Source: Octopus sinensis
Lineage: Eukaryota
Direction of reading: 5' to 3'
Length of the DNA: 64,000 nt
Assembly: GCF_006345805.1 (NCBI RefSeq)
Contig: NC_043001.1
Location: 30,566,001-30,630,000 of the forward strand
Shown here: piece by piece, positions 260-64,000 of the stretch
Layout: each line of letters opens with the position of its first letter
How positions within the stretch are numbered: the stretch's first letter is position 1
Made by a program: the position numbers and the translations under genes
The notes under the pieces: model-generated
What the model was told of the DNA's origin: nothing
What the model saw: only the letters and a program-made list of their open reading frames with translations
Databases searched by the model: none

Positions 260-806
260 ATAATTAGAGTTCAGCAAAGATTTGCTTTACCACATACCGA
301 AGTTTAGAAATAGCAGCCAAAAAAAGCCTTAGCTATTTCTTCTACTTTAAAAAGGGACTCCCACAAAAACCAAAATACTTGAAAACAATCCACACAGGCA
401 GAGAGGAAAAGTAACAAAAATCAATCAATATCTGGTCACCCATGTACTTGTGTTTCGGAATTAGATCGGTATAAAGAATATAGAATTATACTTTACTGTT
501 CCAGTACCTTCGAATTTAATATTTCAATATTTAATATTGTTGGAGTCCCATGCTGATGAAGAAAATGGTTAGTAAAGTATAATTCTATATTCTTTATACC
601 GATCTAATTCCGAAACGCGCGTACATGGGTGACCAGATATTGATTGATTTTTGTTACTTTTCCTCTCTGCCTGAGTGGATTGTTTTCAAGTATTTTGGTT
701 TTTCTGGGAGTCCCTTTTTAAAGTAGAAGAAATAGCTAAGGCTTTTTGGCAGCTATTTCTAAACTTCGGTATGTGGTAAAGCAAATCTTTGCTGAACGCT
801 AATTAC
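260..806. mobile_element. Inverted-repeat (fold-back) PLE-type terminal unit between (TA)n tracts
   Basis: Arms ~260-497 and ~571-806 are near-perfect reverse complements. The right part carries a hammerhead motif. Confidence 0.75.
547..629 (+). ncRNA. Minimal type I hammerhead ribozyme motif
   Basis: CCCATG-CTGATGA-(imperfect stem II)-GAAAC-GCGC-GTA-CATGGG. Helix I is CCCATG/CATGGG, with a palindromic GCGC loop III. Confidence 0.8.
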
Positions 807-850
<44 letters not shown>

Positions 851-1149
851 TAATCCAAACAAGAAAACACAATAAAACCAAAAAAAAACACAACAATGCA
901 AGGACGTGGAACAAATAAGGAAAGAAGGGAAGAAGGAGGGTTTAACGTTTCTTCGTCGGTAACATAGGAGAAGGAAAGATCCAGAGAAGGGATACACACA
1001 CACACACACACAAATATATATATATATATATACATATCATTCATTTTTCATTCATTTCCATTTTATCTAGTTTCAGCTCATGAGCTGTGGCCAAAACTGT
1101 GGCAATACTGGGGGCACCACCTTGAATGTTGAGTTTGACCTATGATGTG

Positions 1150-1930
1150 CTTGTGCATTAAGTTTTAACGTTCTAGCTCACTTCTGATGTTTACAGCAGT
1201 GCTTGGAGGGAAGGTGTGTAGCGTGTGATCATCGCATTGACCAAGACAGAGGAAGTTGTCATGGTGATACCTGCACAGAGGCCTACATAAAGTTGCAGAA
1301 AGTGTATGGAGAGGAGTGTATGAGCTGCACACAAGTGCATGAGTGGTCCAGATGTTTACAAGATGACCAAAAAAATGTTGAAAATGACTAACCTTCTGAG
1401 AGACTTGCAACCAGCAGAACTGAGAAAAGCTTTGCAGATGTGCATGCAGCTTTGAGGAGAAATCTTCAAATCACCATCCATGAGTTATCAGAGGATGTGC
1501 AGATTAGTTACAGGTCCGTTCAGTCCATTATCACAGAAGATTTGGGTATGAGACGTGTGTCTCAGAAGTTTGTGCCAAAACTGCTTTCAGCTGACCAAAA
1601 AGACACTCAGGTTTCAGTTGCACAAGATTTCCTTGATTGTGTCAAGAACGATGGAAACTTTTTGAAAACTTTGTGTAGGCCTCTGAGCAGGCATTGCCAA
1701 GCTTTTGACAAAATTTGATGCAGATTCTCTGCTCGGCTTTCTCTGTTATGGTCAATGTAATGATCACACACTACACACCTTCCTTCCAAGCACTGCTGTA
1801 AACAGTGGAAGTGAGCTAGAACATTAAAACTTAGTGTACATGCACAGCAGAGTTCAAAGTCAATCTGTACCAAACAGCTTCACCCTGTATGCTTTAGCTT
1901 CATTACTATGGCAACAGTCTGGATACTTAC
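1150..1930 (+). mobile_element. Decayed mariner element, 5'-5' fold-back derivative
   Basis: Broken transposase N-terminus (KVYGEECMS..VHEW; ITIHELSED..SVQSIITEDLGMRRVSQKFVPKLL). ~1730-1840 is an inverted copy of ~1150-1255. Confidence 0.8.
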
Positions 1931-14477: not shown

Positions 14478-14598
<121 letters not shown>

Positions 14599-14600
14599 TA

Positions 14601-15477
14601 TAGGGTGTTCCAAAAATCATTGATGGGTTTCAATTTTTAATAACTTCATTAACTTTACAAATAAATGAATGAAATTTTGATACAATATAAAAGGCATAAT
14701 GGAAATTAATATGCATAAGTCAAATTTTGCAACACCACTACATCACATATGAAAAATGACATTGCTTAAATGGCAGCCATTTTCGACTTCGCACACCCGT
14801 GCTCTTCCGAAACTTGCACCATAACACCCTCAAGAGTTTCCGACCTTACATCTCTGATTTCTCTATTGATGTTCTCCTTCAGTTGCACCAAGGTCTCCGG
14901 TTTGTTGGTGTAAACCCTCTCTTTCAGGTATCCCCACAAGAAAAGATCCAGGCTAGTCAAGTCTGGGGAATGTGAAGGCCAGTTGACATTACCGTAGCGA
15001 GAGATTATTCTCTCTCCAAAGCACTGCCGTAGCAACTGCATTGTTTCTCGTTGCAGTATGAGCAGTGGCCCCATCTTGCTGGAACCATGTGTAACGTCTA
15101 CTTTGAATGGTTTTCACGTTTCCAGACTTGACTAGCCTGGATTTTTTCTTGTGGGGATACCTGAAAAAGAGGGTTTACGTCAACAAACCGGAGACCCTGG
15201 GGGCAATTGAAGGAGAACATCGATAGAGAAATCAGAGATGTAGGGTCTGAATCTCTTGAGGGTGTTTTGGAAAGAGCACAGGCGTGCGAAGCCGAAAATG
15301 GCTGCCATTTAAGCAATGTCATTTTTCATATGTGATATAGTAGTGATACAAAATTTGACTTGTGCATATTAATTTCCATTATGTCCTTTATATTGTATCA
15401 AAATTTCAGGCATTTATCTGTAAAGTTACGGAAGTTATTGAAAATTGAAACCCATCAATGACTTTTGGAACACCCTG
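14601..15477. mobile_element. Tc1/mariner superfamily DD41D (rosa-type) 3'-3' fold-back element
   Basis: TA-flanked TIRs (C/T)AGGGTGTTCCAAAA and ~360-bp inverted arms. Encodes WFQQDGATAHTA..WPSHSPDLTSLDLFLWGYLKERVY; 41 residues between the 2nd and 3rd Asp after correcting one frameshift. Confidence 0.85.
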
Positions 15478-15613
15478 TATATGCATACATAATTAAAGAT
15501 AAAATCAATTAATGTGGCCAGCAAGTAATAAAAACCATATACGTAAAAAGTAATATAGATATATAATTATATAGATATAATTATAATGAAGGGTACTGAG
15601 AAACAGCACCTAC

Positions 15614-19434: not shown

Positions 19435-20241
19435 GGGATCTTTTCCTTTTGAACGGCAGTTTTCAACACAATTTCTAGTTAACTAAACACTTTTAAACTT
19501 CGTATACTGGTAGAATGTGTTTATAAAACATAATTTTTCTTGGCTTTATTGAGAAAATTCTATATGTTGTAACATATTTCGACTTTAATTTCGAGCATTT
19601 CGGCAATTTTAACCAATCGCTGGAGTCCATTTGGGGTGAAAACATTCTGTGCTGTATGAATATGTCCCTCGTTTAAGAAACAGATTGGGTTTATTTACAT
19701 TTGCGAAGAAAAAAAGATACCCTTCCCCCACCCTAACCCTAACCCTAAAAGATTGAAATGCAATAGATCGATACTAGGGTTATAATTATGGGTGACAATT
19801 TCATACGACACCGCTACGGAAAATGGGATTTTTTTCTAGCGGTGTCAAATGAAAATGTCACCCATAATTATAACCCTAGTATCGATCTATTGCATTTCAA
19901 TGTTTTAGGGTTAGGGTTAGTTAGAGTTAGGTTTAGGGTTAGGGGTGGGGTAAGGGTATCTTTTTTTCTTCACAAATGTAAATAAACCTAATCTGTTTCT
20001 TAAGCGAGGGACATATTCATACAGCATGGAATGTTTTCACCCCAAATGGACTCCAGCGATTGGTTAAAATTGCCGAAATGCTCGAAATTAAAGTCGAAAT
20101 ATATTACAACATATAGAATTTTCTCAATAAAGCCAAGAAAAATTATGTTTTATAAACACATTCTACCAGTATACGAAGTTTAAAAGTGTTTAGTTTACTA
20201 GAAATTGCGTTGAAAACTGCCGTTCAAAAGGAAAAGATCCC
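19435..20241. mobile_element. Fold-back MITE with ~385-bp arms containing telomere-like (CCCTAA/TTAGGG)n
   Basis: GGGATCTTTTCCTTTTGAACGGCAG...GATCCC, with arms separated by ~16 nt. Single-arm copies at ~5390-5590 and ~62106-62490. Confidence 0.85.
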
Positions 20242-25293: not shown

Positions 25294-25353
25294 CGCGCGC
25301 ACACGCACACACACACACACACCCTTATATCAAAGTTAGATAAGGCCGGTTAT

Positions 25354-25414
25354 GGTACCATCTTAGGTTTCACGTCCATAAAGGGCTTAGCTTTATGGTG
25401 TATCATCAGATCCT
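25354..25414 (-). ncRNA. Hammerhead motif in 3' pLTR (degenerate cleavage triplet)
   Basis: Minus strand: GGAT-CTGATGA-tacaCCATAAAG..CTTTATGGacgt-GAAAC-CTAA-GATG. Confidence 0.6.
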
Positions 25415-26271
25415 AAAACCTTTGGCTAAAGGTCTTTTTAGCGAATCATCTTTCTAGAATATAGAAGAAGAAAGAAACACTGTTATTCAATGCCAACAAA
25501 GGGGATTGTCTCCCCTTTGTTATCGATCACCGATGTCAACAAAGAGGATTGTACCCCTTTGGCTATCGATTGTTGGTCACACCGTTATCCCGTTGGTTCC
25601 AATAGGCTGGCAGGAATTTCCTGAAATGTAAGCATGGTCCGAAGATCTCTGTTCTGGAGTTCAAGATGTTCCCTGGGTCGAGAGAGTCCTTTAGGATCCT
25701 AGCTCGTTCCACTATGCATAATTTACAGCAATTGGTCCCGTTAATGTAGGGGCCTGGATTTTCTAGGATTTTCCATGATATTGTGTATGGAATCCCGTCG
25801 TCTATCAGCTGCCATACACGGCTTGCTAATGACATGATGACTCTCTTTTCCGGTATCCTGAAGGAGGATCTGTGGTTGGAGAGGTAATGTTTGAACGAGT
25901 TCCCTGAACAGCCGATGTAACTCTGTGGTCGGGTGTTGGCAGTGGTGTATCTGTTGGTGTTGGCATCGATGCCACCGCTGTTGCTGGAACTGGAGCAGTT
26001 GGTGCTGGTGCTGCTGGTGTTGGTGTCATTGGAAGTGGTGATGGTGTTGGTGCCACCACTGCCGGTATTAGTCAAGGTGCCGTTGTTGTTATTATGGCCA
26101 TCACCATTGATAGAAGCGCTGTGATTGCTGTAGTAGATGTCATTGGCGATATCTGCTGCTATTGGCGATGCTGTCGTCGCTATTATTGTTGTTATCGCTG
26201 GCGATGGTACTGCCGCTGCTGTAGCCGTAGCCGTTAAGGAAGCTGCTATTGCTGCTGTTGCTGTTGCTGTT

Positions 26272-26628
26272 GAGCGAACGGTCTTCGTCCCAGATGGGAG
26301 AAGTCCGAAACTTTAGTCCTTTGCTATTCGCAAGACCCGCAGAAGAGAAAGCAGGTCAACCCCCGACACCGAGAACATCGACGGATGGATGAATGCGCAT
26401 CCAGGCTCAGCGGTTGCGTAGGAAGTCGGGGACAAGAATCAGGAAGAAAGAGTGAGAGAAAGTTGGAGTGAAAGAGTACAACAGGGGTCGCCACCACCCC
26501 CTGCCGGAGCCTCGTGGAGCTTTAGGAGTTTTCGCTCAATAAACACACACAACGCCCGGTCTGGGAATCGAAACCGCGATCCTCCGACCACGAGTCCGCT
26601 ACCCTAACCACTGGGCCATTGCGCCTCC
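26272..26628 (-). mobile_element. tRNA-derived SINE inserted in the PLE endonuclease region
   Basis: Head GGAGGCGCAATGGCCCAGTGGTTAGG..GGTTTCGATTCC, flanked by TGCTGTTGCTG-like repeats. Confidence 0.75.
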
Positions 26629-27621
26629 ACTGCTGTTGCTGCTACTGTTGTTAGGGATACTGTCATTGCTGGTTGTTATTGCTGTTATCGCTGGCGATGG
26701 TGCTGTTGGTTCTGTTCGCGTTGCTGCTGCTGTTACTATTGGTACTGACGTCCTTGCTACTGTGGTCGCCGTTAGGGGAGCAATTGATGCTGTTACTGCT
26801 AAGGTCAACGAGTAACTCGGCTTCGTAGACGATTCCCTTGGTTTCGCAGTGGCCCCCCTCACTGAGCATCTGTTGCGGTCCCTGCATGGACATCCTGTCT
26901 CTGCTCGTGGCCTAGGGGTGCTAACTAGAATGCTCTTAATATTGGGGACACAGCCAAAAGAGACCCTAACGTTGTGCCTGTTAAAAATGCGTCCGCATCT
27001 ATGTGAACTAGTGAAATGTTTATCTACTAACTTAAATGATATCTTACCTATAGACGTTTTTACGTTATGAGTGAAGCGGAGGGCGGGAGACCAAATGATA
27101 TTTCTGTGGCGCTTCCTTCTACGGATGATGGGGCCTGACATGTATGAGATGTGGTCCCTAAATCCGCTAGTAGCTAGGGCCTTGTTATAGTAGGGGGCTG
27201 CTGCATTAAAAATCTCTTGGTTGAAGGAAAGGTTCGTGATCCTCTTACTAACACCTTTCACCAGGTTTTTGAACACGATGGGTGGGTGACAGGAAGTTGT
27301 GTTGATGTAAGTTAGCCTCACATATGGCTTGCGGTAGGGCCTATATATACCGGAGCCCAAGTCGAGCGTGACATCTCAGAAGTCCGTAGTGATGAGGTTG
27401 GTCTCAATGTTGATTTTTAATCCCTTGGAGGCAAGTGTGTTAATTAGATCTTTCCTAAGCTTGTCTAGTGTGTGGTCGTTTGCTCCTCTAGAGATGGCCA
27501 AGGCGTCATCTCTATAGAGACCAAAGAGGACAGAGGGGAATTTTTTCTTAAGGGTATCAAGGATATACAACCCGATGAGGTCGCATGCATCAGCGATGTC
27601 GTAGGCCCTCATTGCTGTGTC

Positions 27622-28140
27622 AATTATTATTATTATCATTATTAATTGTCTTTGCACAGCTTCTAACGCTGGAGATGTACTACAGTGTCAGCTGTTCCCT
27701 ACCAGTGAACTAAGGTAAACACTCCTTATTTTTCGAGCACCATCCGGAGTATTCGAGTGGTTCCAAGCCGTACCGTTTTCTGCAAGTGTTCTACCCTTAT
27801 TGCAGCCCCTATTCGTTCCATGATTCTCAAGATTTTTACTCACTGTTCCCAGGGCTCCGACATTTATTGGTACTACTACCACCTTTTTTCATCGACCACA
27901 ACTGCTTAAGCTTCCACGCCAACCTGTCATATCTATCGACTTTTCTTTCTTCCTTGACGCATACCTTGTTGTCAAGCTGGGCATGCTATATCTATGATCC
28001 AGCATCGTTTGCTTTCTTTCTCAATTAACACTATGTCTGGCTTCCTATTCTCTATCTCATGGTTGCACCGAATCATAAAATCCCAAAGAATATTTGCATT
28101 ATCATTTTCGATGATGTCTTCGGGTTTATGTTCGTAATAT
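27622..28140 (-). mobile_element. 3' fragment of an R4/Dong-like non-LTR element (restriction-like endonuclease) nested in the PLE
   Basis: Remnants LWDF..PDIV..K..C.IIDIA.P.D..EEEKVDRY..L..LWSMKKVVVVPINVGALG, with a (TAA)n-like tail at ~27622-27642. Confidence 0.7.
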
Positions 28141-28249
28141 TATTTACACACACGAAGAAAAAGCACACATAAGTGGAATGGTTACACCCCTAGCATAGGC
28201 CACAACACACACACAAATATATATGTTTATTCTATACACACACATACAT

Positions 28250-28299
<50 letters not shown>

Positions 28300-28323
28300 C
28301 AAAGTTAGATAAGGCCGGTTTAT

Positions 28324-28384
28324 GGGATTACCATGGGTTTCCCGTCCGTAAAGGGTTCAGCTTTATGGTGTATCATCAGACCCC
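28324..28384 (-). ncRNA. Hammerhead motif in 5' pLTR
   Basis: Minus strand: GGGGT-CTGATGA-tacaCCATAAAG..CTTTACGGacgg-GAAA-CC-CAT-GG-TA-ATCCC. An inverted copy lies on + at ~28451-28507. Confidence 0.75.
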
Positions 28385-28790
28385 AAAACTTGGCCTAAAA
28401 TCTCTTCAAATATCTTAATATTTTGAAGGGGTCTTAGAACAAGTTTTGCTGTCTGACGATCGCCATAAAGCTAAACCCTTTATGGACAGGAAACCCAGGG
28501 TGATCCCATAAACCGGCCTTCCCTACTTTTAATATATACTGCTCTACATCTTAGAGTGTGCTTCTCCGGATTTATGTTTTCTACAAACGATATATATATA
28601 TATTTTCTTTTATTCTTTTATTTGTTTCAGTCATTTGACTGCGGCCATGCTGGAGCACCACCTTTAGTCGAGCAAATCGACTTATTCTTTGTAGGCCTAG
28701 TACTTATTCTATCGGTCTCTATTGCCGAACAGCTAAGTCAAGCGATGTTGGGGGGGGGGGGGACAAGCACAGACACACAAGCATATACAT

Positions 28791-46878: not shown

Positions 46879-48180
46879 GTATTTTACATAAATTTTCTCA
46901 ATTTTTATTTTGTATGTCTGTAGCTTTGATAATTAGTTTTAATTTTTTTTTTGTCATATACAAAGCGAAATCGAAATCGAATTGAACCAGCCAGGATCCC
47001 TGGTCTGGTGGTACGTAAAAAGCACTATCCAACTCGTGGCCGATGCCAGCACCGCCTTGACTGGCTTCCGTGCCGGTGGCACATAAAATACACCAATCTG
47101 ACCGTGGCCGTTGCCAGCCCCGCCTGGCACCTGTGCAGGTGGCACGTAAAAAGCACCCACTACACTCACGGAGTGGTTGGCGTTAGGAAGGGCATCCAGC
47201 TGTAGAAACATTGCCAAATTAGACTGGAGCCTGGTGCAGCCTTCTGGCTTCCCAGAACCCCGGTCGAACCGTCCAACCCATGCTAGCATGGAGAACGGAC
47301 GTTAAACGATGATGATGATGATGATGACATAGACAGGCAGAGGCAGTTGCTGTGTGGTTATGAAGTTTGCTTCACAATCGCATTGTTTTAGGGCTCAGTC
47401 TCTCTGCATGGTACTTTGGGCAGGTGCCTACCATTGATGTCAACGATTAACATTCTTATAGAGTACTCACTCTTCATAGAGTACTTAGAGTCACTAGGTA
47501 GCTCAAAAACAGATTTTTTTTCAAGTGAATAAAGAGCAGTGCAGATATTGACATGTTCTAAGATTCTTTTCACTTAGTTCATGTGGAGCCTACTTGCCAT
47601 GCTTAGGCATAGTCCCAAGTTCTTACAAATGATAATAAACAGTTGATAATGATGAATTAACCCATTCTGCTAACTCTTCAGCAGTTCCATTTGGATTTCT
47701 TCCAGTAGCAGCTTTCAATACATCATTATCAAGAGACAGGGCGCTCAGAGCAGCACACACCTTCCAAACTAAAGTCCCCTTGTCAAAATTTATGGAACCA
47801 TCATTGGCACTTGCAAATATTCAAAACACCTTCACCATATACTTCTTGCACTTTTTTTTTTTTTTTTAATGGCATTTGTTGCCTTTTTCATACTCATAAA
47901 GCATGACATATCTGATGTGTTCTGCTGTGACCTCGCATTTTCATGAGGGTCTATTAAAGCAACAAATTGTTACTTGTGTGTCTGCAAGCTAGAATCTAAC
48001 CAACTGAGGCTTTCCTTGCTCTGTGGTATTAATGCACCTGTGAAAATATCTTGTTTAAACATGTTAGAGCAGGTTTCAACAAGTATGGTCTGAAAAAACA
48101 ACATAACTTATGAGAAGACCTGTATATAGCTTTGTATGCTAAAAATTTCCAATAACATGTTTTCTGTTTTTCTTTTCCAG

Positions 48181-48279
48181 AATCTGGTCGATTGTGGTAG
48201 CATTCCTTCATTGCCTGCTATAACCTTCACTTTAGGCGGTAAAAGTTTCACTTTGAGTGGCGCAGATTATGTACTTAAG
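48181..48279 (+). CDS. CTSD: Cathepsin D exon 8
   Basis: [33 protein letters not shown]; ttccag| acceptor and AAG|gtaagt donor, phase 0. Confidence 0.95.
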
Positions 48280-48882
48280 GTAAGTCAAATTTAGTAATAC
48301 CTGTATGTATGTGTGTGTGTGTGTGTGTATCAAATCTCATCTAATGTCCACTTTTTCATATTTGGATGGGTCAGTCAGAATTTGTTGAAGCTAGTTTTCT
48401 GTAACATGATGGCCAGATATTTTTTCGTGGCAGACTGGAAATGGACAGCATGCTTGTTTATATCCTTCATGCACTGTCAGAACAAAGGTACACACAAGCA
48501 CATGTACATGACTTCTTTCAGTTTCTGTCTACCATATCTAACAAGACTTTGTTGGCTCAGAGCTGTAACAGAAGACACTTGCTTAAGGTGCTGCATAGCG
48601 GGACTCAACCGAAGACCATATGGTTGGGAAGCAAGCTTCTTAACCACATGGCCATGCTTGCACCTTAGCTCCTTTTCAGCAAGACAGTTGTCCCTCTATC
48701 ATATTTTCATCTCCCTCAATACTATACTCTGTTCAGCTGAGAAGCTTTGTCTTGTGACTACTTGGTGACCTTACATGGAAAAAGCTTCCTGTAAAGTAGT
48801 TGGCATTAGGAAGGGCATCCATCTATAGAAACATCCAGTGCAGATAATGTAGCTCAGCATAGTCCTCTAACTTGACAGATTC

Positions 48883-49369
48883 TACATTATTTACATTTGA
48901 TGGATATTTGTCCCCATCTTGTTTGTTGTTAACACAACATTTTGGCTGATATACCCTCCAGCCTTCGTCAGGTGTCTTGGAGGAAATTTCAAACTTGGGT
49001 TCTCATTTCCTAATGTATTTTTCGATATTATTATTATTATTATTCAGGTCACTGCCTGGAATCGAACTCGGGATCTTGGGGTTAGTAGCCCGCGCTCTTA
49101 ACCACTATGGGCACATGATGTAGTGGTTAAGAGCGCGGTCTACTAACCCCAAGATTCCGAGTTTGATTCCAGGCAGTGACCTGAATAATGATAACAAAAG
49201 AAAAATACATTAGGAATGAGAACCCAGATTCGAAATTTCCCCCAAGACACCTGACAAAGGCTGGAGAGTATATCAGCTGAAACGTTGTGTTAACAAACAA
49301 GATGAGGACAAATATCCGTCAAATGTAAATAATGTACATAATTCCTTGTTTCTTAAATATAGAACTGTA
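48883..49369. mobile_element. Palindromic tRNA-head + hammerhead retroelement flanked by a target-site duplication
   Basis: Arms 48883-49107 and 49121-49336. tRNA-like A/B boxes at the centre and HHR motifs at ~48927-48976(-) and 49246-49291(+). TTGACAGATTC is duplicated at 48872-48882 and 49370-49380. Confidence 0.85.
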
Positions 49370-49507
49370 TTGACAGATTCTGTTGCCAGCATGGAAAATG
49401 GACATTAAATGATAATGATATAGAAAAACCTGCATTTAAGTTCCCTTAATATTTTTGAAAACTTTGTCAGTATGTTTTTTTTTTTTTTATTTTAATGAAT
49501 ATTTCAG

Positions 49508-49672
49508 GTAAAGTCAATGGGAGAAGTTCTCTGCTTGAGTGGTTTCATGGGACTTGACATTCCAAAGCCAGCTGGACCCCTTTGGATTCTAGGGGATGTA
49601 TTTCTAGGACCCAACTATGCTGAATTTGATCTCAAGAATAACCGGGTGGGGTTTGCAAAGTCAAGGAACTAA
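49508..49672 (+). CDS. CTSD: Cathepsin D alternative last exon 9a (391-aa isoform)
   Basis: tttcag| then [54 protein letters not shown]. Phase 0, uninterrupted. Confidence 0.88.
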
Positions 49673-50491
49673 AAGGAAAGATCTGTTTATATTTTGCGTG
49701 CACTTATAGTGGGTTCATCTTTTAGTGTCTTTTTTTCTCCCCCACTCCCTCTACTTGCTTTGCTTCTCTGTTGAAGCTTCAAATAGTTTGTAGGTTTCTT
49801 TTGTAGCTGCATGCTTGGTTAATCTGCATGAGAACTTTTCCTTCAGTTTCATAAATCTGTCAAACTGCACCAGTACAAATTTTCTTCTTGACGTTATACT
49901 TTCTGGGGCGTTTTAAATTAATCCAAGTCCCCCCTCCTCCCCATCAGTTCTATGGTACATTAAAGAAGTATTGAGATTACAAAGTTTTTTGTACTTGAAT
50001 GTTAAATGAGTTAACAATTCGAGTTATGAAAGAGTAACAATTTTTTTTTCACTCCCAAGTGTACCTAATTACATATTATCACGGTTCTTCCAAAGAGCTG
50101 CTTAAAGACTTATTTATATGCATTAAAAAAAATTTAATCTAGACGGGTGGAATATTGAAAAAATTATTTAGCAGCATGGATCATCTCATTATTTCTGTTT
50201 TGCTTTATTTGAATATTGCTTTGGTGTTTTCATTTTGCATGTATCTTTTTTAGATATTAATATCATCTCTTAAAAAAAAATTTTTTTATGGCTTTTTAAT
50301 TTTAAAATAATCTCCATTAATGCACTATCATTTATTATTTCTCACCATTCTTCCATCCTATTAAAATTCCATTCAACTTCTTTTTAATTTTCTCTTTTTT
50401 TTAACCATTCTATGAATAATTTTGTAATATATATTAGTTTTAATTACTTTAAATTATTACTCATCAATGTGGACATGCCATTATCTCGCAG

Positions 50492-50653
50492 GTAACTCAA
50501 GCTGGACAGACAATTTGTTTAAGTGGCTTTATGGGAATTGACATTCCTCCTCCCGCAGGGCCACTGTGGATATTGGGAGATGTTTTTATTGGAAAATATT
50601 ACACAACATTTGATGCTAAAGGTGACAGAGTTGGTTTTGCTCCTAGTAAATAA
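50492..50653 (+). CDS. CTSD: Cathepsin D alternative last exon 9b (390-aa isoform, canonical polyproline loop)
   Basis: tcgcag| then [53 protein letters not shown]. Phase 0, uninterrupted. Confidence 0.92.
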
Positions 50654-50776
50654 ATCAAAAATATTTTATATACATACAATATTAAAGCAAGATCCCTGCT
50701 ATTCCTTTTTCCTGTAAAAAGAAAGCATTTTCACCACCTGCTATTTGTGCCTCTTTTTTTATTTTTCTAATGATAG

Positions 50777-50782
50777 AATAAA
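50777..50782 (+). terminator. Likely polyadenylation signal of cathepsin D
   Basis: AATAAA ~125 nt after the 9b stop, followed by a GT/T-rich tract at ~50803-50820. Confidence 0.6.
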
Positions 50783-51591
50783 AATGTCTTTATTTCATAA
50801 AAATTGTGTTTTTTTTTTTTCTTCTTTGATACATTTAATGATGCATGCATGTACAGACACATACAAATAACTAGAGCTGAGTATAGCTACAGTCTAATGA
50901 CTGAAGCGAATAAGATACAAATTAAAGTTTGTTTCACATCTGTTGCTTTGACTTAATTTTATGCTTTTTAAGTTGGTCTTTATTGTAGCCACTTTTTAAA
51001 AAAAAAGTTTAAGCCAAGTGAAAGTGAATCTTTTAAAGACACAATTGATTAGATTTTCTAAGATAGCAACAACTATTCCTAACTAATGTGCTGAATTATT
51101 TGTAATAAGCCAACCTTACAATCATAGCTATGTTAAAATGGAAAAAAAGAAAAAAAAAGCACTTTGGAATAAAAGTCACATTCTTAAAGGATTCAGTTAG
51201 TTTTTGCTATTTGCTGTTAACCAACATGATTTCAAATTTTGGCACAAGTATCAGTAATTTCAGGAAGTGGCTATGTCAATTACATCGATCCCAGGGTTCA
51301 ACTGGTACTTATTTTATTGACTCTGCAAGGATGGAAAAGTCAACTTTGGAATTTGAACTCAGAACATAAGGAGGGATGAAATGCCCTTAAGCATTTTGCC
51401 CAGCATACTAATGCTTCTGCCACCTTTTAACCAACATAATGTACGGATGAATGTACAAGATTGTGTAATGAAATTGAAAACTATTGTAATACTGTTTGCT
51501 TTCATTCCCTCTGCTGTATATTGGCAAAAATACAAGCTGTAATAGAAGAATGGTAAATTATTCTAGGATTCAAATCAAAATGGAAATTTGG

Positions 51592-61752: not shown

Positions 61753-64000
61753 ATATATCACTAAAATCTCAAAACTTCAAGATAAAGGATGATTAATTCA
61801 AAACAATGTGAATGAGGAAGCATTACATTTGACAGAGCAACTCTGAAAGCCAAGGGGTTAACATCCATGTTCCATGCTAGCACAGGTTGGATGGTTTGAC
61901 AGGATCTGATAGGTCCAAAGACTGCATCATGTTCCAGTGTGTTTAGCATGGTTTCTATGGCCAGATGCCCTTCCTAATGCCAACCACTTTAAAGTGTTCA
62001 CTGTGTGCTTTTCTTGTGCCACTAGCACTAGTGAGGTCACCATGCAGCTTGCAAAACTATGAACTTTGAGTGGGGTGGGGGAAAACTTTATGTAGAAGAA
62101 TATGTGGATCTTTTCCTTTTGAACGGCACTTTGTAACATAATTTCTAGGTAACTAAAAAGTTTTAAACTTCATATACTGGTAGAATGTGCTTATAAAACA
62201 TCATTTCTCTTGGCTTTATTGAGAAAATTCTATAGGTTGTAACATATTTCGTCTAAAATTTCTTGCATTTCGGCAATTTTAACCAATCAATTACCTCCAT
62301 TGACGTAAATAACATTCTGTGCATAATGAATATGTCCCTCCTTTAAGAAACAGATTGGGTTTATTTACATTTGTGAAGAAAAAAGATACCCTTCCCCCAC
62401 CCCTAACTAACCCTAAATCTAAAATAGATTGAAATGCAACAGATCGATACTAGGGTTATAATTATGGGTGACAATTTCATATGACACCGCTCTCAAAAAT
62501 TAAGTAAAAAAAAAACGGGAAAAATAATCTATAATCTTTGTTCAGTACCTGATCGATCCCAATGGTAGTCATGGAATGTGAAGGTAGCTGTAGAAAATTT
62601 ACTAACAGTAATAAATAGTTTATCCTTATCTAATACAAGCCAAAGTTAACAAATTCACCATTCAAAGTAGTTTCAAAGGCAGAGGTAATAAGTTCTACTC
62701 AGGAATTTTTAAATGAATAGCGTGAGATCTTTTAGTTTTCTCTTCTCTTAAATTCTGGCCTTTCTTTAGTATTCCTGTTTTAGATCGATGTATAGATGTA
62801 TGTATATATGTAAGTATACGGTAAAGTGTTGATATGTAAATATAATATATATATTATAAAAATATGTTAGTGTTATTTAATTTCTGGACCGTTTTGCTGC
62901 CGTTTATGTAGTTTGATTTCTGTATCCATCAGTTTTTACTAAGATAGACATGAGTAAAGTTAATAATAGAGAAATTAAAATAAAACTTTGGAAACAGCCT
63001 AAAGGGAGATAATTGAGAAAGACTTGAAATTGAATGTAAGACTGTAATCATGTAAAGTAAATATAACAAATAATCCAGAATCCTTGTCCAGTACTGGATT
63101 GATCCTAAAATCTAATCAGTTCGTACCAGTCATGAAGCCAAACAGCCCTGAAAATTTCATCCAAATCCATCTGGCAGTTCTTGAGATATCTTGTCTATGG
63201 ACAAACACAACTGAAAACAATACCTCCACCTTAGCAGAGGTAGTGAGAAGTGTAGGGACATAACAGGTGTGATCCAATAGGTAAAATTAGTGAAAGATGT
63301 AGTAGAAATAACCTACTCTAGTTTGTATGTCATGGACATAAAGTTGAAGTGTTATTTATAACAAGGAAGATTAATGAACTGTGCTGTGTTTTAAAACCCA
63401 TAACCATTCAATAACTATTATTGAAGATTATCCTTACAATTACTGCATTTATTCAAAATCATAGATGGCTTTCATGTTGTTGAGGTAAGTCATCATGCAG
63501 TCTCCTGCATATGATATTTGATTTATACTTCTATTATAATCCCATTCAATTGCAAGGATTATCTTTCACTATCATCATCACCATCAACATCTATTTTCCT
63601 TGCTGTCATGGGTTGGACGGCTTGACAGGAACTGGCAAGACCAGAATCTATACCAATTCCATGGTCTGTTTTGATTTGATTTCTAAGGCTTGATGCCCTT
63701 CCTAACGCTAACACTTTACAGAGTGTACTGGGTGCTTTTTATGTGGTACCTTCACCAATGCTTTTTATATGGCACCAGCATCAGTGCTTTTTACATGGTA
63801 ACCAGCACCCACACCAATGCTTTTTATGTGGCACCTGTTTTAGGATTTCAATTCTGTTGCAATGGGCTGATCTTCTTGAGTACAGCAATGCACCACATAT
63901 CTTGGTCCAATGTCATCTCCTTTGTAAGGCTTTTAATCAAAAATTTCCAATTCATTATATTAAATATGTGTGACTCTCCTATAGGGACACTCTTAGTGGT

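What the first reader, a model, noticed from the sequence alone, without database searches (positions are those of the whole stretch)
48883..49369. tRNA-promoter + hammerhead element inserted as a single palindromic unit: candidate Penelope-mobilised SINE or retrozyme
Seen: the + arm reads tRNA-like head (GGGCAC..TAGTGGTTAAGAGC..GAGTT[C/T]GATTCC..GTGACC, ~49109-49181), a spacer, then a hammerhead motif. The consensus of both arms is GACAC-CTGACGA-A-GGCTG..CAGCC-GAAA-CGTT-GTGTT. An inverted, ~33-nt shorter copy sits head-to-head, and the whole unit is bounded by an 11-bp TSD (TTGACAGATTC) inside an older SINE, so it is one insertion event. Known: minimal helix-III-poor HHRs and inverted partial terminal copies are hallmarks of Penelope-like elements, and schistosome SMalpha combines a tRNA-related region with an HHR. 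Inference: this is a Pol III-driven non-autonomous element that parasitises PLE machinery rather than a LINE, and may be undescribed in cephalopods.
Basis: partly seen in the sequence, partly recalled or inferred. Interest (0 to 1): 0.8.

Follow-up and report, generated by a model that had tools for sequence, protein, structure and literature searches.

The report
tRNA-headed hammerhead parasite of Penelope elements
A roughly 260-base non-coding jumping element, abundant in this genome, joins a tRNA-like promoter head to a minimal hammerhead ribozyme motif and inserts as head-to-head pairs with the hallmarks of Penelope-like retrotransposons, so it is likely a SINE that borrows Penelope enzymes rather than LINE enzymes, although its partner element has not been found.

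Summary
At 48884-49369 two 88%-alike arms sit head to head inside one 11-12-bp target duplication in an older repeat; only the + arm has a 33-34-nt 3' extension. Each arm has a broken hammerhead core; their differences there are all CpG decay. Contigs of three public runs show an abundant family (hundreds of loci at least, probably thousands) whose majority letters give an intact minimal hammerhead of the published Penelope type and a near-perfect A/B box. Other copies show inverted heads joined to variably truncated 3' pieces, and two 3'-end classes about 30 nt apart: the Penelope insertion signature. Both arms share two rare alleles, so one template made both. Best reading (0.65): a likely Pol III-transcribed, non-autonomous element mobilised by a Penelope-like reverse transcriptase. 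Not shown: a partner element, transcription, self-cleavage; Rfam and ARAGORN do not call the head a tRNA. 'Retrozyme' is not supported. Each ingredient has precedent (Sm-alpha, non-autonomous Penelopes, TRIMp3); nine paper searches did not find the combination. Repbase, Dfam and the 1994 octopus SINE paper could not be checked.

The parts
48872..48883 (+). Left target-site duplication (11-12 bp; last base shared with the end of the - arm)
48884..49109 (-). Inverted arm: tail-less copy starting at about tRNA position 11-13
48931..48976 (-). Minimal hammerhead of the - arm; G12>A (48943) and C15.2>U, both CpG-type changes
49108..49109 (.). Head-to-head junction; 1 base can be assigned to either arm
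   Evidence: sequence read with majority letters
49109..49369 (+). Full-length arm (261 nt), no run of 4 T on the sense strand; first T run downstream at 49452
49109..49183 (+). tRNA-like head; A box 49116-49126, B box 49160-49170
   Evidence: weak in this copy; majority letters at 49114, 49118, 49119, 49139, 49164; no Rfam/ARAGORN call
49184..49199 (+). Length-variable (AAT)n linker, possibly the vestigial tail of the tRNA-derived head or the microsatellite target of the original fusion (inference)
   Evidence: (depth trough, loose end at 49194)
49200..49245 (+). Spacer of unknown origin, part of the family
49246..49291 (+). Minimal type I hammerhead: helix I 49246-50/49287-91, core 49251-57, extra A 49258, 6-bp helix II 49259-64/49273-78, core 49279-82, palindromic ACGU 49282-85, predicted cut after 49286; G8>A at 49256 in this copy
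   Evidence: family majority; published consensus
49292..49335 (+). 3' region common to both arms; highest family depth; first class of 3' ends at 49333-49342
49336..49369 (+). 33-34-nt tail on one arm only; second class of 3' ends at 49367-49371
49370..49381 (+). Right target-site duplication
48780..49420 (+). Older interspersed repeat with a (GAT)n end that hosts the insertion (its two halves flank the element; left limit approximate)
49508..49672 (+). Last coding exon of an aspartic protease gene; the element lies in the intron before it (context, not part of the element)
   Evidence: PF00026, E 3.2e-11

Best explanation
[quoted passage not shown] Steps: (1) inferred: Pol III starts at tRNA position 1 and reads through the T-run-free 261 nt to the first T run in the flank. 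(2) Inferred from published work: the helix-III-less hammerhead is nearly inactive as a monomer, so uncut RNA is the template; a cut after 49286 would separate the promoter from the 3' end. (3) Shown as a product, inferred as a mechanism: the enzyme nicks both target strands 11-12 nt apart and primes reverse transcription on each, at two internal start sites about 30 nt apart, on RNA from one source locus. (4) The two cDNAs run towards the RNA 5' end and join head to head; with so short a template both can approach completion, giving a near-palindrome as here, otherwise one is a 3' stub. (5) Inferred origin: a tRNA-derived head became fused through a microsatellite to a truncated Penelope pseudo-LTR. 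(6) Shown: this copy is decayed, both hammerhead cores being broken by CpG changes.
For: Locus anatomy matches the published Penelope pattern of an inverted 5'-truncated copy and a 30-40-bp tail at one end (PMC8557442). Family level (contigs of runs X1, X2, X5): G8 is G in 96.2, 97.2 and 98.0% of depth; no other core position has a second letter at 10% or more; tool-printed loose-end consensi read CTGATGA and CCGAAACGTT. The motif fits the metazoan min-HHR consensus point by point (PMC4209133), which also reports opposite-strand pairs 100-700 bp apart. 8 of the 15 joint rows shown (of 115) join the inverted head (49107/49109) to + strand places from 49165 to 49317, 2 more (from 49120, opposite strands) likely do; where the letters between are given the head stops at tRNA position 1, about 3 or about 9, none showing upstream sequence. 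Of 21 long pieces listed on the arm, 8 run on 50 nt or more into other sequence: 5 leave at 49333-49342, 3 at 49367-49371. Both arms carry C at 49255 (0.9-1.7% of family depth) and A at 49209 (non-majority 3.7-11.7%). In vitro, an anole Penelope protein nicks and extends both strands, starts at two internal sites that delimit the tail, and uses uncleaved RNA (PMC11167929).
Against: No partner: no genome held; the window's Hydra-type Penelope ends and the 280-790 hammerhead stub give no match better than E 0.47; 4 motifs absent from the Naiad/Hydra/Chlamys supplement (long sequence runs may be cut there). Head not called by Rfam or ARAGORN, folds no better than shuffles (z 0.25 and -0.03). Absence of T runs is weak (50% of 5000 shuffles also lack one). 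The arms' hammerhead folds are not significant by energy (z -1.2, -1.6). The commonest loose end at 49342 begins with a further 9-nt unit of the 3' tandem repeat (agreement 0.43), which recalls LINE-type tails. Joints rest on 21-25-nt short sides and 1-3 contigs a run; depths are biased towards contigs like the laid copy. No single contig listed spans head to hammerhead. The target is only 53% A+T, not the AT-rich or microsatellite target reported for some Penelopes.
Confidence: 0.65

Rival explanations
1. The arm is simply the pseudo-LTR end of a longer, Pol II-transcribed Penelope (autonomous or not) that once received a tRNA-derived insert; the copies are 5'-truncated stubs and the head is a passenger, not a promoter.
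For: Opposite-strand min-HHR pairs 100-700 bp apart are a known product of truncated Penelopes (PMC4209133); a tRNA-type SINE sits inside the window's own Hydra-type Penelope at about 26330-26630; the region upstream of the head in other copies was seen in only a few junctions (table 5c: 12 rows shown of 140).
Against: The + arm here and the few readable junctions stop at tRNA position 1-9 with nothing upstream; no shared loose end before 49109-49121 is among the 18 best-supported rows shown (of 1121). Random truncation would not favour position 1.
Confidence: 0.15
2. An ordinary LINE-mobilised SINE that carries a Penelope-derived hammerhead as a relic; the inverted pair arose by twin priming or template switching.
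For: 11-12-bp target duplication; short 3' tandem unit at 49325-49342 with extra units in some copies; SINEs with RTE, CR1 and other LINE partners abound in octopus (PMC8967140).
Against: Both arms contain the same 3' sequence (duplication, whereas L1-type twin priming gives inversion without duplication: recalled); a unique-sequence 33-nt tail on a minority of copies; inverted 3' pieces at many breakpoints; hammerhead core retained in the majority.
Confidence: 0.1
3. A non-LTR retrozyme or Sm-alpha-like satellite: tandem units are cut by the hammerhead into monomers that circularise and are reverse transcribed.
For: tRNA-related Pol III promoter plus hammerhead is the Sm-alpha/Sj-alpha design (PMC6765202; PMC2770079); retrozymes are proposed Penelope derivatives (bioRxiv 10.64898/2026.07.22.740005). 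One joint row (49107 to 49292, opposite strands) could be a head-to-tail junction.
Against: This locus is not tandem; its hammerheads are on opposite strands and cannot pair in cis; copy 5' ends are at the head, not at the cut site; the hammerhead is minimal, not canonical; retrozymes are described as lacking promoters (PMC7761336).
Confidence: 0.06
4. A fold-back MITE of a Mutator-like DNA transposon (long terminal inverted repeats with a 9-11-bp target duplication: recalled).
For: Long inverted arms and an 11-12-bp duplication.
Against: Ends are asymmetric by 33-34 nt; junction position varies between copies; two 3'-end classes; tRNA head and hammerhead inside.
Confidence: 0.04

Closest known systems
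Minimal hammerheads in metazoan Penelope pseudo-LTRs (Cervera and de la Pena 2014, PMC4209133; first two of four parts and supplement passages read)
   Same: 5-bp helix I, extra nucleotide between 9 and 10.1, G10.1-C11.1, long helix II, palindromic 15.2-16.2, no helix III; opposite-strand pairs 100-700 bp apart (here cores 280 bp apart).
   Different: Those are described as stubs of truncated Penelopes; no tRNA-like promoter head is reported in the parts read.
Sm-alpha / Sj-alpha of schistosomes (seen only through passages of PMC6765202 and PMC2770079)
   Same: tRNA-related Pol III promoter followed by a hammerhead; high copy number.
   Different: Canonical hammerhead, tandem multimers cut into monomers; here a minimal hammerhead, dispersed head-to-head insertions with Penelope tail.
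Non-autonomous Penelopes: MRC1 and other Chlamys derivatives (PMC8557442 passages), short butterfly Penelopes (PMC6685494 passage), animal non-LTR retrozymes (bioRxiv 10.64898/2026.07.22.740005, parts 1-3 of 5)
   Same: Short, non-coding, Penelope-type 3' end, dependence on a Penelope in trans.
   Different: No Pol III head in the passages read; retrozymes are defined by tandem units with a hammerhead in each.
TRIMp3 (Cassandra, Helenus, Ajax; PMC10886601 passages)
   Same: A small-RNA-derived Pol III promoter captured by a non-autonomous element of a class other than LINE, proposed to arise by SINE insertion into a terminal repeat.
   Different: LTR mechanism (PBS, PPT, 4-5-bp duplication); no hammerhead.
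Octopus SINEs OK, OR1, OR2 (Ohshima and Okada 1994; paper not held; family name OK recalled)
   Same: tRNA-derived heads in an octopus genome.
   Different: OR1 and OR2 are CORE-SINEs (PMC4824008, PMC4758252 passages); the arm has no match above 17-20 nt to the window's abundant CORE-type SINE (CORE label recalled). Identity with OK could not be tested.

Membership tests
Penelope min-HHR | Core CUGANGA / GAAA / UH intact | tested here: met
   Family majority; not in either arm of this locus (one mismatch each)
Penelope min-HHR | Extra nucleotide 9.1, G10.1-C11.1, palindromic 15.2-16.2, no helix III, short helix I | tested here: met
   against the consensus; C11.1 is C in 30-65% of depth, U (wobble, as in the laid copy) otherwise
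Penelope min-HHR | Self-cleavage as dimer or with protein | not testable with these tools
   needs in vitro assay
Penelope-type insertion | Inverted 5'-truncated copy at the 5' end | tested here: met
   locus; 8 of 15 joint rows shown
Penelope-type insertion | 30-40-bp tail at one end, two 3'-end classes | tested here: met
   33-34 nt at locus; 5 versus 3 of 8 long run-on pieces
Penelope-type insertion | 3' end shared with an autonomous Penelope | tested here: inconclusive
   no genome; window Penelope ends do not match; motifs absent from one published set
SINE (tRNA-derived) | tRNA-related head with A and B boxes at the 5' end | tested here: met
   majority letters give 0+1 mismatches; this copy 2+2; Rfam and ARAGORN negative; source tRNA not identified
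SINE (tRNA-derived) | Short (75-662 nt), non-coding, many dispersed copies | tested here: met
   261 nt; 267-319 contigs a run leave the element at 49342 into heterogeneous long flanks; range from PMC3531059
SINE (tRNA-derived) | Transcribed by Pol III | not testable with these tools
   only contigs available; no T run on sense strand is weak
SINE (tRNA-derived) | Mobilised by a LINE, LINE-derived 3' tail | tested here: inconclusive
   insertion anatomy is Penelope-like; no LINE library could be searched
Non-LTR retrozyme | Head-to-tail tandem units each with a hammerhead | tested here: not met
   locus is an inverted pair; arrays elsewhere not excluded (15 of 115 joints shown)
Non-LTR retrozyme | Circular monomeric RNA | not testable with these tools
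   no raw RNA reads offered
CORE-SINE (OR1/OR2) | Central CORE domain | tested here: not met
   no extended match to the window's CORE-type SINE; proxy test, that SINE's label is recalled
Mutator-type fold-back MITE | Symmetric terminal inverted repeats reaching both ends, fixed structure | tested here: not met
   33-34-nt asymmetry and variable junctions

The most novel reading that the evidence does not exclude
A true SINE whose partner is a Penelope-like element: a Pol III promoter fused to a Penelope 3' end, amplified to thousands of copies in octopus by dual-strand priming, with a minimal hammerhead kept as a recognition or regulatory element. It would extend the SINE/LINE and TRIMp3/LTR partnerships to the third retrotransposon class and define a 260-nt natural Penelope substrate.
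Probability: 0.45. Interest if true: 0.78.

Novelty: new variant of a known kind. Interest (0 to 1): 0.62.

Why it matters
SINEs are described as parasites of LINEs, and Pol III-headed parasites of LTR elements were named in 2024; a Penelope counterpart was not found in nine paper searches. Penelope insertion mechanics (inverted ends, tail, role of the hammerhead) remain open. A short family with a defined RNA start and thousands of copies would let one tally both priming sites, both truncation points and the target cuts, test whether stubs begin at the ribozyme cut, and supply a minimal RNA for in vitro work. It also suggests that some of the many unclassified octopus SINE families (893 among recently active ones in PMC13282606) may be Penelope-dependent. 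This copy itself is decayed and intronic; no host function is implied.

Tried and rejected
Whole-genome search: no genome held. Rfam on 47000-51500 and on each arm: only hairpin-driven miRNA and snoRNA matches below gathering score, rejected. ARAGORN relaxed to 80 and 70% gives 39 and 202 calls, too noisy to use. Pattern scans: 0 in metagenome contigs twice, 0 in viral contigs, 3 in prokaryote genomes, all 20-27-nt chance matches. Run X18 (RNA, organism D, share 0.12) laid 0 contigs; no evidence for or against expression. No raw-read runs were offered, so RNA ends could not be seen. Sharing of this insertion among organisms A, B and C is not shown: no listed contig spans a junction. Pfam found nothing for the two Penelope-like frames at 25566-27375; their Hydra-clade label is a by-eye match to Hydra-1_Obim. 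Motif search of paper full texts returned 6 unrelated papers. SINEBase consensus files, Lunse 2017 and Ohshima and Okada 1994 were not available; they may bear on novelty, as may the closed supplements of the bioRxiv preprint and file 1 of the PMC4209133 supplement (not searched). Earlier-findings look-ups by sequence and place were empty. A reading of the spacer or 3' region as a Penelope ORF fragment was considered by eye and dropped as too short to test. Summed contig depth was not taken as a copy number.

Full report
Locus. The window sequence holds two inverted arms: 49121-49336 on + and 49107-48883 on -, 88.4% alike over 225 columns; no other copy lies in the 64 kb. The unit is bounded by TTGACAGATTCT at 48872-48883 and 49370-49381, a 12-mer found 2 times in the window; its last base can belong to the - arm, so the duplication is 11 or 12 bp. 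Removing the element and one duplicate restores a copy of an older repeat that aligns with 9 of 9 window copies supplied, apart from a ~15-nt deletion 3 nt to the right. The + arm is longer by 33-34 nt at its 3' end and by 10-12 nt at its 5' end. The site is in the intron before the last exon of an aspartic protease gene. The host is inferred to be an octopus from a by-eye match of a window Penelope frame to Hydra-1_Obim.

Hammerhead. A scan for the minimal motif finds no perfect hit and, allowing one core mismatch, exactly the two arms; 8 of 8 shuffles give none. The + arm's minimum-energy fold is the minimal hammerhead topology, though not significant by energy (z -1.21; - arm -1.61). Each arm is broken at a different catalytic base (G8 on +, G12 on -). 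Of 17 substitutions in 207 aligned bases, 15 are transitions and 7 are at CpG, including all four in the core region. At the clock quoted in PMC13282606 this is roughly 7-12 million years per arm, a rough figure. Rfam has no match to it. The published metazoan consensus (PMC4209133 supplement) and features fit point by point, and that paper notes opposite-strand pairs 100-700 bp apart as products of truncated Penelopes.

Family. No genome is held, so I laid contigs of 4 of the 24 runs listed on 49085-49620 at 80% likeness. X1, X2 and X5 laid 34,802, 31,945 and 21,521 contigs (some on the host repeat's end); X18 laid none. In X1 summed depth is 0.66-7.2 million per bin over 49121-49372 against 45.6 on the unique exon. 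The tool warns this is no copy number; at 49114, near the 5' end, the ratio is 2,155, 3,278 and 2,825, and 298, 319 and 267 contigs leave the element at 49342 into long heterogeneous flanks. Hundreds of loci are thus a floor and thousands likely. G8 is G in 96-98% of depth, no other core base has a second letter at 10% or more, and the printed loose-end consensi show the complete core. Depths are biased towards contigs like the laid copy, so I draw no claim of selection.

Head. In this copy the head is weak: not called by ARAGORN or Rfam, 1 of 11 A/B-box hits at 2+2 mismatches against 0-7 in 10 shuffles, while the window's other tRNA-type SINEs score better; it matches one of them at 63% over 49 nt, E 0.17. 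The majority letters at 49118, 49119 and 49164 bring it to 0+1 mismatches, where shuffles give 0-1. A likeness to tRNA-Arg is recalled and untested. The sense strand has no run of four T, which half of shuffles also achieve.

Insertion signature across copies. Of 15 joint rows shown (115 in all), 8 join the inverted head at 49107/49109 to + strand places 49165-49317, 2 from 49120 likely do the same, 1 is ambiguous and could be head-to-tail, 4 are internal skips. Short sides are 21-25 nt in the 8 rows, each with 1-3 contigs a run, and some landing places may be alignment restarts at indels. One junction to 49318 has about 15 times unique depth in all three runs. Where letters between are printed, the head ends at tRNA position 1, about 3 or about 9. 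These joints tie head and 3' part to one family, although no listed contig crosses the (AAT)n linker from head to hammerhead. Depth peaks at 49301-49336, as expected of short inverted 3' stubs, and falls in two steps after it. Of 21 long pieces listed on the arm, 8 run on for 50 nt or more: 5 leave at 49333-49342 and 3 at 49367-49371. This is the inverted-copy-plus-tail pattern of PMC8557442. Against it, the loose-end consensus at 49342 starts with another 9-nt repeat unit (agreement 0.43), reminiscent of LINE tails.

One template. Both arms carry C at 49255 (0.9-1.7% of family depth) and A at 49209 (non-majority 3.7-11.7%); at the other 7 majority sites compared the - arm has the family letter. 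Two independent insertions would seldom share both, though later gene conversion is not excluded.

Mechanism. PMC11167929 (first two of four parts) shows a Penelope protein that nicks and extends both target strands, starts reverse transcription at two internal sites delimiting the tail, and uses uncleaved RNA. Applied here (inference): each nick primes one cDNA, one from the short and one from the long start, and the cDNAs join at their 5'-proximal ends; a short Pol III RNA lets both run almost to +1. A cut after 49286 would lose the promoter, so propagating copies must escape cleavage, in line with the weak monomer activity reported for minimal hammerheads.

Partner. Not found. The window's Hydra-type ends (25333-25440, 28300-28530) carry a different hammerhead and the 280-790 inverted stub another; neither matches. 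Four motifs were absent from the PMC8557442 supplement. Collection scans gave nothing real.

Prior art. Nine searches found Sm-alpha (tRNA promoter plus canonical hammerhead, tandem), retrozymes as non-autonomous Penelopes, other non-autonomous Penelopes and Pol III-headed TRIMs, but no tRNA-headed, Penelope-inserted SINE. Unchecked notes of this scan describe related cases in other genomes; they are leads only.

Verdict. Real, abundant, decayed at this locus; a new variant of a known kind. Best explanation 0.65; interest 0.62; 0.78 if partner and Pol III start are shown.

Noticed in passing
window 25333-27640 (-) and 28300-28530: Broken Penelope remnant close by eye to Hydra-1_Obim, interrupted by a tRNA-type SINE at about 26330-26630; hammerhead-like motifs with a full helix III at 25409 (-), 28379 (-) and 28453 (+, inverted partner); ends abut (CA)n.
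   Followed up: partly
window 280-790: Second inverted pair (arms 97% alike over 177 nt) with a hammerhead-like motif having the extra A and a long helix II loop near 550-625; another likely Penelope stub, unrelated in sequence to the finding.
   Followed up: partly
window 1129-1863, 14598-15480, 19435-20241, 41597-42007/61344-61754: Other long inverted repeats; the first three look like non-autonomous DNA transposons; 19435-20241 holds telomere-like TTAGGG runs and has a further copy at 62106-62384.
   Followed up: no
window 49384: The host repeat lacks about 15 nt three bases right of the second target duplicate; whether this arose with the insertion is unknown.
   Followed up: no
joint 49109 to 49318: One identical head-to-stub junction has about 15 times unique depth in all three runs, suggesting a junction hot spot or re-amplification of a complete inverted unit.
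   Followed up: no
window 27640-28240 (-): Fragment that reads by eye like the restriction-like endonuclease end of a non-LTR element, between the two Hydra-type ends.
   Followed up: no
window 49508-49672: Last exon of an aspartic protease (cathepsin D-like by recall) gene.
   Followed up: partly
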